A stretch of 64,000 nt of DNA from the NCBI GenBank assembly GCA_964016885.1, contig OZ024748.1, positions 31,868,001-31,932,000 on the forward strand. Reading direction: 5' to 3'. Below the pieces are notes generated by a model. It saw only the letters and a program-made list of their open reading frames with translations, was not told the origin of the DNA and ran no database searches. This DNA comes from Eledone cirrhosa (lineage: Eukaryota). The position numbers and the translations under genes were made by a program. Below are positions 8,080 through 56,940 of the stretch, in pieces. Numbering within the stretch: position 1 is the stretch's first letter; the number at the start of each line of letters is the position of its first letter.

Positions 8080-8187
8080 TGCTCCGAAGAACTGACTGGT
8101 TATAATTTTGTATTGGCGATCGAGTAACGTGAAAACAAGCGAATAGCGATCTCTAGACCTACCAGTTCAGAGAAACAATTGTCAGCA
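8080..8187 (+). ncRNA. Hammerhead-like motif (family E), U4C core, ~80-nt stem II
   Basis: TGCT-CCGAAGA-aCTGA-CTGGT...ACCAG-t-TCAGa-GAAA-CAATTG-TC-AGCA. Confidence 0.7.
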
Positions 8188-8342
8188 ATGAGATTAAAAA
8201 CCTTTTTTGTATTGCAAACCATGTCAATCGTCTTTCCTGATTTATATATATATATATATACGTTATTCCGGGTTGAATCAGAGGTAACCACAGTAAGTAG
8301 GTACTCAATACATTGCAGAGTATAAAAGTTTTAATATAGATG

Positions 8343-8393
8343 AGATTCTACAGGACTAGAACTGTTTCATTCTTTAGAAATCATCATGAATCT
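8343..8393 (-). ncRNA. Degenerate hammerhead (family B), C3A
   Basis: Minus strand AGATTC-ATGATGA-...; otherwise matches 20762-20812. Confidence 0.75.
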
Positions 8394-9360
8394 GGGTATC
8401 AAAAAATAAGTATGGTATTTATAGGTCTCTACAAGTGGTAGGAGAGGGTGGGGAGTGGGATGGGTGTAGGTCATTGGTTGATAGAAAAGGGAATTCATTA
8501 AAAGCTAATTCTACAAAGCTATCATTTATTTTTATTTTTATTTTTAGAGTAACAAAGGCAGAAAGAATTCCATAAACAGGTTCAGGATGGCATGCCACTC
8601 CTTATTAAGTTTCTCTTAAGCTAACAGGTGTCTATAAGATCAGTGGGGGTCAGTCATGGTAAATATATGTAAAGGAAAGGGAGATTCTTTAAAAGCTAAA
8701 TTCTTTAAGGTTCTACTAAGTAACAATGGTTTAGAGAATTCTGTAAACAAATTCAAAATATTGAGTGCATATCTTACAATTATCCTCATCCTCAAATTTC
8801 TCTTAAACTATTCAAGTATATGCCAAAAATCAACGGACACATTCACAAAACACACTCACTCACACATTCGCGCGCACCCATAAACACACACACTTACACA
8901 TATACATATATATACACACACACATACACAAATATATACACATATATATATATATATATATATATATATATATATATATACATATACATATATATATATA
9001 TACATGTATGTATATACATACACACACACATATATATATATATATATATATATATATACACACACACACACACATACATATACACATATATACATATATT
9101 TATATATATATATATATATATATATATATATATATACTCACTCACACACACACATATACACACACATACACATATAAATATATATACACATATACACACA
9201 TACATATACACATATACACACACACATATATATATATATATATATATATATATATATATACACACACACACATACATATACACAGATATATATATATATA
9301 TATATATATATATATATATATATATATATATATATATATATATATATATATATATATATA

Positions 9361-10480
9361 TATTGTTAGCACCCAAACACTTAAATTGGGTTTATATTAA
9401 AATATAACCTAATGTTTGTTGAGTGAGATGGTTACCAGACAGAGATTAGCTTTAAACTATCTCTGTTATTGTATTAATATGTTACTCTTGATTGGCCAGA
9501 GGTGTTTATTTCCAGGTACCTTATAAATTTGACTTTCCGTATTTATTACTGTTGTGCGATATCGTGGTTTTTATTGGTTGTAACATCTATGTTTTTTAGC
9601 CTAGGAAAATATATATATGCATATGTATATAATTACATGCATACATTTATTTTTTTTAATTAATTGAGTTCTTTACACGAGGAATTGATATTAGTTTTGA
9701 AATAACTAATTAACCCGCGTGTGTTTTATATTTTACTCTTACTTCGGCCGGAGATTTACATTCCCATTTGCCCTTTAAAGCATAACTTTCCGTATTTACT
9801 ACGGTTACGAGATGCGGTTTCTTATTCAGGTACAACCTCTGTTTTTAGCCTAAGAAAATATCTATATGCGTGTGTAATTTATACACGCATATATTTATTT
9901 TTTTAATTTCAATTGAGTTCTTAACACGTTGGATTGATAATGTTTTCGAAAAAACTGATTAACCCGCGTGTATATTATTTTTTTTCTTCCTTTCGTGGAT
10001 CGTAGTTGTCTCCCCTTCCCGCTTAGTGACGCTATAATACTTCCTCGGTCAAAAACTGCTGGAATTTCAAATTTGCCGGTCATTCGATGCGGGAAGGAGA
10101 AACTTAACCGACACGATTTTTAACTGTGGTAAGAAATGTTTTTCTTATATCAAAGTTTATTGGGCTTCCACTGATGATTTATAAGAGCCCACCTAAATAT
10201 ATTCTTACATGAATGTATATTAGGCTTCTACATAAACTGGAAATATTCTCCGACTTTGTAGAAAACTTATAATGAAACAATTGTTTGGAAAGAGAGATAT
10301 ATTTTAACCTTAATTATATCTCATAAAATAATACAACTGGCTTTTCCGCATAATACATATTGTTAGCACCCCAAACACTTAAATTCGGTTTATATTAAAA
10401 TATAACCTAATGTTTGTTGAGTGAGATGGTTACCAGTCAGAGATTAGCTTTAAACTATCTCTGTTATTTTATTAATATTA
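9361..10480 (+). mobile_element. Non-coding ~1-kb HHR element with ~120-bp terminal direct repeats, embedded in (TA)n
   Basis: tattgttagcacccaaacac... at 9361 and 10358 (period 997); HHR at 10166; internal ~250-bp diverged duplication. Confidence 0.8.
10166..10290 (+). ncRNA. Type I hammerhead (family F) with ~96-nt stem II domain
   Basis: TTCCA-CTGATGA-tTTATAAG...CTTATAAt-GAAA-CAATTG-TT-TGGAA. Confidence 0.82.
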
Positions 10481-53764: not shown

Positions 53765-55177
53765 ATTAAAATAACCGATTAAAGTTGAAGCAAAGAATCG
53801 TACATACACAAGCATACGCGAAAACACTCGCCATAGGTATACAAATACACGCACATATAAATAGGTGTGTGTGTATGTGTGCGTGTATACAAATAATAAA
53901 ATAAACGTATATAAATAAATAAATACGTATATAACAAGCGCACACACCTACCTACATGTAAATACACAAATGTTCGGAAACGTACGTCAACCAAAACACA
54001 ACGTACACATATACACACACCCTACATACTCACACAGACGCAAAACTGACGTATACACATAACCAAAAGCATATGTACCAGAATATATAAAAAATACGCC
54101 ATAACATATACAATCAAATATACGTACGAGAAAGTATACGTACCTTCACAAAACATACAGGTAATATATACTTACCTATGCAAAAAAGTAATGGTATAAA
54201 CATAACATATACTTAGCTACCACATCAAGACGTAAAATATCCGCGTATAGATCGTACTATCCGTTAGGGTATAATGTGGGGCTGTAATACAGGAAAGTTT
54301 TGTGCAATTTATGTTTACAAGCCGAAATTGCCCCAGATTTTATGTTTAAGATGTGGTCTGTGGCGTAGAGTATTTCCAGGGCCTCAGCAGCGCAGAGGTC
54401 ACATGGTCTTTTATTTCCATTATACGATCTAGCCCTAGCTAGGATCTTCCAGTGTAACTTATATTGGGTGTGGTTGTCTTTTAGACACCAGATATAAGCT
54501 GAAAGTGACGTCATATTCCTCCTTAGAGGGTAACGAAAGAATGGGTATGCATGTAAAGACGCTGCTTGAATCTATTGGCGGTTAACCCTATGTAGGCCGT
54601 ACGGGACGTGGGTGTTACAACCTTACATTTGTAGACAATGTTACTAGAGAGGCATTTCCCGGATAGGGGGCAATCAACCCGATTCCTACAATTGCAGTTA
54701 GTACAAACTACAGGGTTGCACGCGTTCCTACGGCTAGGTATTTTAGCTAAATTTGAAGCTGTGATGTTATGTGAAAGGTTAGGAGTCGTAGAGTAAGAAA
54801 TTTTAATAGTATTTCTATTAAATATTTTACTATATTTATGTGTAGGGGGAAAATGCTTCGTAATAAGGGATAGAAAGATCTTAGCTAATGGTGTGGCCAC
54901 CTCCATATTATATGGTGGGATATACCATATAATGAGTCGGGATCTATTTCTTCTAGGTCTATTCTCGTACTCTGTATATGCTACCTCATCGACAAATCCA
55001 CTCCGAGGAAGAGCTTCATTGTAATATATGGAATGGTCGTTGAAAATATGCTCGTTTGTAGATAGACGGGAAAGCCTCAACGAAACGTTTCTTACCAGGT
55101 TCTTGTTTATGATGGCAGGATGGTTGGAATGCTTACTTATGTAATTAAGCGTATCATTCGGCTTTCTATACGGGTAT
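53765..55177 (-). mobile_element. 5'-truncated PLE (thumb plus GIY-YIG, coding 54257-55177), same family as 59.8-61.4 kb
   Basis: WYIPPYN, CNCRNRVDCPLSGKC, IVY..YIG, CDLC..CKH; 3' region internally deleted through the HHR. Confidence 0.9.
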
Positions 55178-55903
55178 GAAAGCAGCGATTCTTTGCTTAA
55201 ACTTTAATCTGTTATTTTAATAAATATTTGCTCTATATTTATCCTTATCGAGCCCTCTTTGGATTTTAGTCTTCAAATTTATTATTATTACTATGTATAC
55301 ATATATGTATATATGTATATATATATATATGTATATATATATATATATATATATATATATATATATATATATATATATATATATATATATATATATATAT
55401 ATATGTGTGTGTGTGTATATACATATGTATATATATAAATATGTATATATATATGTACATATATATATATATGTATGTATATATGTATGTATATATATAT
55501 ATGTGTATGTATATATATGTATGTATATATATGTATGTAAGTATATATGTATGTATATATATATATGTACGTATATATATATATATATATGTATGTATAT
55601 ATATATATGTATATACATATATATATATATATACATATATATATATACATATATATATACATATATATACACATATATACATATACATATATATATACAT
55701 AGTATTAAGGATACTATTTATGGTTATGTATATACTAAAACCTTTTATACTTATATATATTTTAAAACCTAAAGAGTGAAAGACAGTAATTTATTACTAC
55801 CTTATTACAAGTAAGATAAATAGCTCAATGTAATAACACCAGTTGTTCTACAGAGCAGTTATATAGAAATTACATGAATCAAAGTTCTGTTCAAACCATT
55901 TAT

Positions 55904-55952
55904 TAGCTTACACTTGTTTCGTCCAAACCGAGGTTTGGAGTCTTCGGAGCAA
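55904..55952 (-). ncRNA. Hammerhead-like motif (family O), CCGAAGA core
   Basis: Minus strand ttGCT-CCGAAGA-cTCCAAACC(tc)GGTTTGGAc-GAAA-CAAGTG-TA-AGCta. Confidence 0.68.
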
Positions 55953-56891
55953 TTTTTCAATGATTGTTTACATACATGACCTCCTTTCCAACACAAGAGA
56001 CATACAGAAAGATATGTATATATCGATGCACAGTGGGGTGACATCCATTATAATATTATAGCATGGCAATTTACATTCAAAGATTAAAGTCATATTAAAA
56101 GGAAACAAAATTAAAGTTAAAATACAACATTGGCAGTTTACGAAGATAATGCAAGAGGATAGTTAGAAGTAGTTAGTGTATGCAATAGTTACACGTGGGG
56201 CATGCACGTGTGTCTTATTTATATAAGATTAAAACATTGTTTTGCTTCTCATTTTTAATATTATTAATATTTTTAATATTTCTCTGCACACAAGCTTCTA
56301 TATCATACATAAAAAATACTTTACCAATACAACCCCCATAAAACAGTGTTATGGTTTTCGTATACACCACCATTTTCACAATCCAGGAAACGTAGCATAT
56401 AGATTGTGAAAATGGTGGTGTATACGAAAACCATAACACTGTTTTGCTTCTCATTTTTAATATTTTAAATATTTCTCTGCACACAAGCTTCTATATCATA
56501 CATAAAAAATACTTTACTAATACAACCCCGATAATACTCTTGATTGCCCGCTTAAAGTGCTTGTATTCCATATAACACTTTACCGCACTATAATCTTATA
56601 TAAATAAGACACACGTGCATGCCCCACGTGTAACTATTGCATACACTAACTACTTCTAACTATCCTCTTGCATTATATTCGTAAACTGCCAATGTTGTAT
56701 TTTAACTTTGATTTTGTTGTTATTTTCTTTTAATATGAATTTAAATGTAAATTTAATATGAATTTGAATGTAAATTGCATTGCTAAAATATTATAATGGA
56801 TGTCAACGCACTGTGCATCGATATATATATATGTTTCTGTATGTCTCTTGTGTTGGAAAGGAGGTCATGTATGTAAACAATCATTGAAAAA

Positions 56892-56940
56892 TTGCTCCGA
56901 AGAATCCAAACCTTAGTTTGGAAGAAACAATTGTAAGCGA
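56892..56940 (+). ncRNA. Hammerhead-like motif (family O), U4C core
   Basis: TTGCT-CCGAAGA-aTCCAAAC(ctta)GTTTGGAa-GAAA-CAATTG-TA-AGCGA. Confidence 0.76.

What the first reader, a model, noticed from the sequence alone, without database searches (positions are those of the whole stretch)
8080..56940. U4C hammerhead core (CCGAAGA) kept in two different families
Seen: four motifs (7054, 8080, 55904, 56892) share TGCT-CCGAAGA, GAAA-CAA(T/G)T(G/A)-TH and AGC, yet have unrelated stem II (81 vs 20 nt) and flanks. Established: U4 is highly conserved in CUGANGA. Inference: a natural core variant retained over divergence, not random decay, which standard descriptors would miss.
Basis: partly seen in the sequence, partly recalled or inferred. 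Interest (0 to 1): 0.74.

Follow-up and report, generated by a model that had tools for sequence, protein, structure and literature searches.

The report
Variant-core hammerheads in Hydra retroelements
These four motifs are the ends of two jumping-gene insertions whose self-cutting RNA motif carries C instead of a normally fixed U in nearly all of thousands of genomic copies; it likely still cuts, but slowly, which would suit an element that is likely copied mostly from uncut RNA.

Summary
Observation confirmed. The four motifs are two mirror-image insertions (two events, not four): 5'-truncated ends of two Hydra-clade Penelope-like retrotransposon families whose proteins are 45% identical. 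C at core position 4 is the family consensus: 6,576 of 6,757 family-B matches, and 96 of the first 100 of 1,113 family-A matches. U4 copies are no commoner than the mirror CpG change, so they are decay. Families W, M and probably D also carry C4. Position 7 and the base of stem II vary; the other core letters do not. On a reverse-transcriptase tree the C4 families are not one clade (at least three changes), so a single retained origin is not shown. In one C4 subfamily group, 13 of 44 fold-back arms begin at the predicted cut site and only 4 run further upstream, indirect evidence of cutting; the window's own subfamily types and a canonical U4 family lack this wall. U4C is known from a viroid and one published descriptor allows it, but all 26 published Hydra-clade rows have U4 and Rfam misses these motifs. 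The scan noted this before, in this genome and in others. New variant of a known kind; kinetics untested.

The parts
6828..7590 (-). Family A insertion, long arm: 5'-truncated 3' end (pLTR) of a Hydra-clade Penelope-like element, ending about 230-240 nt past the predicted cut site in a (TA)n run
   Evidence: near-identical to the 3' end of ORF-bearing locus L061
7054..7161 (-). Type I minimal hammerhead, family A, C4 at 7156, predicted cut between 7058 and 7057; helix III pair 15.2-16.2 broken in this copy
7850..8254 (+). Family A insertion, short arm, ending 70 nt past the predicted cut site in (TA)n
8080..8187 (+). Type I minimal hammerhead, family A: stem I 4 bp, core with C4 at 8085, 81-nt stem II domain with A.A at 10.1/11.1, palindromic helix III, predicted cut between 8183 and 8184
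55698..56345 (-). Family B insertion, long arm, ending about 210 nt past the predicted cut site in (TA)n
   Evidence: matches the 3' end of ORF-bearing locus L145
55905..55951 (-). Type I minimal hammerhead, family B, C4 at 55946, C.C at 10.1/11.1, helix III palindrome imperfect in this copy, predicted cut between 55909 and 55908
56440..56985 (+). Family B insertion, short arm, ending about 50 nt past the predicted cut site in (TA)n
56893..56939 (+). Type I minimal hammerhead, family B: core with C4 at 56898, 7-bp stem II, A.A at 10.1/11.1, palindromic helix III, predicted cut between 56935 and 56936

Best explanation
The motifs are the pLTR hammerheads of two Hydra-clade Penelope-like retrotransposon families in which C has replaced core U4 family-wide, and they likely remain working but slow, dimer-dependent self-cutters. 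Shown: the elements, the family-wide C4, the otherwise intact core, and insertion ends fixed about 50-70 and 210-240 nt downstream of the predicted cut. Inferred: reverse transcription starts at those two points and must read back through the cut site to copy the gene, so an RNA cut there yields only short stubs; the element therefore needs mostly uncut (or re-ligated circular) RNA and tolerates, perhaps favours, a weakened U-turn. Two motifs pair through palindromic helix III to cut a minority of transcripts. C4 was fixed in at least three RT lineages by repeated gain, reversion from a C4 ancestor, or module exchange; these were not separated.
For: Consensus: B 6,439 C4-G5 + 137 C4 with changed G5, against 181 non-C4; first 100 of A 96 C4 (n=1,113), M 97 (n=1,581), W 83 (n=584). 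U4 copies in B (about 116) match the mirror change at G5 (about 105), so no revertant subfamily has spread. In contigs laid on both motifs, positions 7 (A), 10.1 and 11.1 (B) and 25-26 flanking places vary at 3% or more; C3, C4, G5, A6, G8, A9, G12-A15.1 do not. Long open frames upstream (778 and 620 aa) show that C4 elements were recently mobile. Cut-site wall in the B2 subfamily group: of 44 fold-back arms at 22 loci, 13 begin at the cut or one base before it, 6 one base after, 4 further upstream, 21 at +7 or later; a separate filter gave 11 of 33 arms (overlapping loci); several joints have both arms at the cut with AT-rich filler. U4C lowers viroid activity in vitro yet allows infection (PMC3088659). 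An anole Penelope protein inserts mainly unprocessed RNA, does not need hammerhead cutting in vitro, and its hammerhead cuts only with protein (PMC11167929).
Against: The wall is not general: other B subfamilies gave 1 of 20, 3 of 13 and 0 at the cut against 7 upstream; family A gave 1 clear arm plus 3 ambiguous loci against 11 upstream arms and 2-4 of 15. The window's own copies belong to types without the wall. A canonical U4 family also lacks it (G: 2 of 25; 3 against 16), so the test is one-sided. A start site or an RT pause at the junction could mimic it. Saturation mutagenesis of one hammerhead found low activity for all single changes in the U-turn (PMC9901934). Within one family, lack of change at one site is weak evidence (most flanking sites also do not vary). 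An unchecked scan note reports a family with A at position 4, which would mean relaxed constraint. No RNA data, no kinetics.
Confidence: 0.6

Rival explanations
1. The C4 motifs no longer cut; the fold is kept for another job (binding the element's protein, positioning RT starts, promoter or intron signals), and position 4 drifts.
For: Cutting is dispensable for insertion in vitro; no wall in most C4 families; U-turn mutants are weak; Naiads spread without canonical hammerheads; an untested scan note of an abundant A4 family.
Against: Base-exact pile-up of arm ends at the predicted cut in the B2 group; the catalytic G8 and G12, the C3-G8 pair and an H at position 17 are kept in every C4 family aligned.
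Confidence: 0.22
2. C4 is fully compensated in this context (for instance a protonated C or the amino group replacing the U4 contact to the phosphate, or the element's protein as chaperone), so it cuts as well as U4 relatives.
For: The strongest cut-site wall of all families tested is in a C4 group, not in the U4 controls; no revertant has spread although one transition would restore U4.
Against: Published U4C is much slower in vitro; no second change common to all C4 families was seen (10.1/11.1 is a mismatch in A and B but G-C in M).
Confidence: 0.15
3. Random decay or chance resemblance in a few dead copies.
For: Two of the four window copies have damaged helix III; folding energies are unremarkable.
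Against: 9,022 genome matches of the C4 11-mer against 159 for the reversed control; family consensus is C4.
Confidence: 0.02

Closest known systems
Hammerheads of Hydra-clade Penelope-like elements (Craig et al. 2021, PMC8557442; section 11, passages, supplement parts 1-2 read)
   Same: Type I motif near the 3' end, short stem I, palindromic helix III, frequent mismatch at the base of stem II, (TA)n targets, C-terminal endonuclease, RWK-like, DKT and CxCX5C motifs.
   Different: All 26 Hydra rows of File S2 have U4 (found with a U4-fixed descriptor, but 25 of 27 listed families were hit); here C4 is fixed in several families, some with 81-95-nt stem II domains.
Minimal hammerheads of metazoan Penelope-like elements (Cervera and de la Pena 2014, PMC4209133; parts 1-2 of 4 read)
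   Same: Located in pLTRs, inverted pairs, predicted dimer-dependent and slow.
   Different: The core variant named in the parts read is U3-A8, not C4; G10.1-C11.1 is called highly conserved there but is absent in families A and B.
U4C variant of a viroid hammerhead (Ambros and Flores 1998, not held; known here only through Perreault et al. 2011, PMC3088659, passages and section 8 read)
   Same: Same core change, reduced in vitro activity, still compatible with biological function.
   Different: A rare variant of an RNA pathogen with tertiary contacts, against a fixed state in some ten thousand genomic copies of minimal motifs.
Small hammerhead variants of Penelope-like elements (Lunse, Weinberg and Breaker 2017; not held, nothing read; title seen in a reference list)
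   Same: By title: variant hammerheads with Penelope-like elements that cut as dimers.
   Different: Whether it lists C4 variants could not be checked.

Membership tests
Type I hammerhead ribozyme | Core C3, G5, A6, G8, A9, G12, A13, A14, A15.1-U16.1, H17 | tested here: met
Type I hammerhead ribozyme | U at position 4 (U-turn) | tested here: not met
   C in about 97% of family A and B matches; a known tolerated natural variant
Type I hammerhead ribozyme | Three helices around the core, open end in stem I | tested here: met
   79.5% of cells pair on 14 motifs against 26-42% for slid partners; covariation not above shuffles
Type I hammerhead ribozyme | 10.1-11.1 base pair | tested here: not met
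   unpaired in 10 of 14 rows; also unpaired in most published Hydra-clade rows
Type I hammerhead ribozyme | Site-specific self-cleavage | not testable with these tools
   indirect only: arm ends at the predicted site in one subfamily group, not in others (66, 84, 87)
Rfam hammerhead clan | Match to a covariance model | tested here: not met
   no hammerhead family at E up to 10 on either pair
Hydra clade of Penelope-like elements | RWK motif and DKT in place of DKG | tested here: met
   RWR and NKT in P0001, DKT in P0002; definition
Hydra clade of Penelope-like elements | CxCX5C linker before a C-terminal GIY-YIG endonuclease | tested here: met
   present in both proteins, followed by YVG or YIG; Pfam gives no significant hit
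Hydra clade of Penelope-like elements | No CCHH motif in the endonuclease | tested here: inconclusive
   both proteins are cut short by frameshifts inside the endonuclease; not aligned to published ones
Hydra clade of Penelope-like elements | (TA)n targets, pLTRs, inverted 5'-truncated copies | tested here: met
Hydra clade of Penelope-like elements | Placement with published Hydra proteins in a tree | not tested
   the tree holds only this genome's elements

The most novel reading that the evidence does not exclude
U4C is a rate governor that Hydra-clade retroelements have fixed three times independently in one genome: because reverse transcription must read through the cut site, selection tunes the ribozyme down, helix III strength sets the residual rate, and the short stubs that begin at the cut site are a genomic record of in vivo cutting by a non-canonical core.
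Probability: 0.3. Interest if true: 0.72.

Novelty: new variant of a known kind. Interest (0 to 1): 0.52.

Why it matters
What hammerheads do for Penelope-like elements is an open question (stated in PMC8557442 and PMC11167929). Here a supposedly invariant core letter is replaced in about a third of the short-stem motifs caught by one descriptor (9,780 C4 against 18,409 U4), in families with U4 sisters. That gives natural matched pairs for asking whether these elements need fast, slow or no cutting, and shows that U4-fixed searches undercount such motifs. The end-mapping used here is a DNA-only proxy for cutting in vivo.

Tried and rejected
Rfam scans: no hammerhead hit on the four motifs. The mismatch at 10.1/11.1 looked like a second novelty or a compensation for C4; rejected, because most published Hydra motifs have it with U4 and family M has G-C with C4. 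Single-copy labels proved unsafe: L186 was labelled U4 in the tree but its family W is C4; L149's label probably comes from a neighbouring insertion; L171, L174, L160, L162 and L175 rest on one copy each. The cut-site test failed or was uninformative in four of five C4 sets and in U4 families F (5 hits) and G; U4 family H gave about 16-18 of about 88 arms at or one base before the cut, 4 of them explained by stem I microhomology (first 100 of 354, by eye). No RNA holder listed. Runs X1-X4 are of unknown kind and may be the source of the assembly, so searches are a variation scan, not independent support. No ORF was found upstream of families D, E or I, so they are not on the tree. The C4/U4 balance of families J, I, E and D rests on a few listed copies only. 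The careful tree did not finish, and the one-clade test, dimer energies and scripted statistics were not run; p values are hand calculations. Lunse 2017, Ambros 1998 and Scott 2013 are not held; the paper reader was closed before the Cervera 2014 supplement could be read. These, and the Perreault descriptors, could already list C4 motifs of Penelope-like elements.
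Full report
1. Observation. Each is followed by a stem II domain (81 or 20 nt), the G12-A15.1 box, a short palindromic helix III, a U-H cut site and a strand that closes stem I. The pairs are the two inverted arms of two insertions lying between (TA)n runs, so there are two events. The 7161 copy has lost one helix III pair and the 55951 copy has an imperfect palindrome. Folding energies are not unusual, and covariation over 14 short-stem motifs is not above shuffles, although pairing (79.5%) far exceeds slid controls.

2. What carries them. The window lies in a 3.0-Gb animal genome ('octopus-type' is a label from an earlier scan note, not tested). Elsewhere the same motifs sit 2.2-3.0 kb downstream of the RT motif of long open frames. 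[quoted passage not shown] Pfam gives no significant hit. A degenerate RT motif has 7,907 genome matches against 4 for its control. The window copies are 5'-truncated ends without ORF; their arms match the 3' ends of L061 and L145. Outer ends are fixed about 50 and 213 nt (B) or 70 and 241 nt (A) past the predicted cut, like the two RT start sites described for an anole element (PMC11167929).

3. Is C4 the consensus? Yes. The C4 11-mer has 9,022 matches (control 159); the U4 version has 1,799 (control 209), and 28 of the 30 loci read were unrelated repeats or not hammerheads, 2 a U4 family. With family-B context: 6,439 C4-G5, 137 C4 with another letter at 5, 181 with another letter at 4. Among the first 100 listed of the 181, 64 are U, 20 A, 16 G; among the first 100 of the 137, 77 are the mirror transition. 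Scaled, about 116 against 105: U4 copies are ordinary decay and no revertant subfamily has spread. First 100 listed: family A 96 C4 and 4 U4 (1,113 in all), M 97 C4 (1,581), W 83 C4, 14 U4, 3 other (584). One general descriptor limited to short stem II gives 9,780 C4 and 18,409 U4 matches (controls 138 and 132). In contigs laid on the motifs, position 7, positions 10.1 and 11.1 and many flanking places vary, while C4 and the other core letters show no variant at 3% (not independent of the assembly, and weak for a single site).

4. One origin? Not shown. A quick IQ-TREE tree of 38 of 56 recovered proteins (near-duplicates dropped, breaks as X) places A inside a group with U4 families S, N, O, P (support 100), B beside U4 families F and G (98), and M apart; well-supported branches force at least three changes. 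Correcting W to C4 does not lower that. F and G are U4 in many copies, N, O and P in two or three each. Three gains, one gain with two reversions (easier at a CpG), or exchange of the pLTR between lineages all fit.

5. Does it cut? If RNA is cut at the ribozyme, reverse transcription started 50-240 nt downstream runs off at the cut, so some arms should begin exactly there. In the B2 group (C4, helix III with a G/C-containing centre) a fold-back search gave 28 loci; 6 were dropped (3 of another family, 3 unrelated repeats). Of 44 arms, 10 begin at the cut, 3 one A before it, 6 one base after, 4 further upstream (none beyond six bases), 21 at +7 or later; 10 of 22 loci have an arm at the cut (counted by eye). 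Four joints carry short AT-rich filler. A different filter gave 11 of 33 arms over 17 positions after dropping 4 internal deletions from 37 hits (hand binomial about 0.001; 7 loci shared). Against this: B subfamilies with an A/U-centred helix III gave 0 at the cut and 7 upstream among 18 arms (9 of 14 loci kept; hand Fisher against B2 about 0.001), 1 of 20 and 3 of 13; family A gave 1 clear arm and 3 ambiguous loci against 11 upstream arms (15 of 24 loci kept) and 2-4 of 15. The window's own copies are of these types. Canonical U4 family G shows no wall either, H a weak one. So C4 is compatible with ends at the cut site in one group; absence elsewhere says little. A transcription start or RT pause at that base is not excluded.

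6. Mechanism. Most likely (0.6) a slow, dimer-dependent ribozyme. U4C weakens the U-turn: the phosphate between A6 and N7 contacts U4 (PMC3088659), the viroid U4C variant is much slower in vitro yet infectious, and U-turn mutants were weak in a saturation study (PMC9901934). The element can afford this because it must copy through the cut site; the anole protein uses mainly unprocessed RNA and its hammerhead cuts only with protein. That selection favours the slower form is inference. Rivals: non-cutting structural role (0.22), full compensation (0.15), decay (0.02).

7. Against what is known. Works like, and by all features except U4 and the 10.1-11.1 pair is, the type I minimal hammerhead of Penelope-like elements. 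All 26 Hydra rows in File S2 of PMC8557442 have U4. Rfam misses the motifs; a descriptor in PMC13481778 allows C or U at this place and reports both in deep-sea RNA. Searches for a printed report of C4 fixed in retroelement families found none, but Lunse 2017, Ambros 1998 and the Cervera supplement could not be read. Papers seen: PMC4209133 parts 1-2 of 4; PMC3088659 passages and section 8; PMC8557442 passages, section 11, supplement parts 1-2; PMC11167929 part 1 of 4 and passages; bioRxiv 2026.07.22.740005 part 1 of 5; PMC6765202, PMC13481778, PMC9901934, PMC3376415 passages. The scan itself noted C4 Hydra motifs before, in this genome (e1-10319565) and in two others, and an A4 family here (unchecked notes).

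8. Verdict. The single-origin reading is unproven and activity is only indirectly supported. Interest 0.52.

Noticed in passing
window 47983-53107: A 5-kb mirror-image Hydra-type insertion with a 610-aa frame. Near both outer ends (about 48040-48085 on -, 53015-53055 on +) it has a hammerhead-like motif that reads as the U3-A8 covariant core with a 4-bp stem II.
   Followed up: partly
window 224-426, 5582-5646, 10166-10290, 21952-22008, 24812-24852, 25950-26035, 41880-42122: At least seven further hammerhead motifs with canonical U4 in the same window; only the pair at 224-426 is seen by Rfam, below its gathering score.
   Followed up: no
window 1071-2431, 27070-28158, 39134-41270, 54523-55203, 59730-60401: Further RT or endonuclease fragments of Hydra-type elements; the window is dense in them.
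   Followed up: no
L156, L157, L152, L162, L174, L186: Many Hydra families in this genome have 80-105-nt stem II domains, far longer than in the published Hydra table; families A, W and S share a recognisable inner fold.
   Followed up: partly
L141 and L147 (downstream of the RT motif): Core-like words with A at position 4 were seen in two loci; may relate to the A4 family of an earlier scan note.
   Followed up: no
L209, L210, L211: Family E: a compact motif with C4, C7 and a G10.1-C11.1 pair, unlike A and B; its element was not identified.
   Followed up: partly
L167, L168, L179: RT-bearing relatives of family W whose hammerhead has lost the 5' core by short deletions.
   Followed up: no
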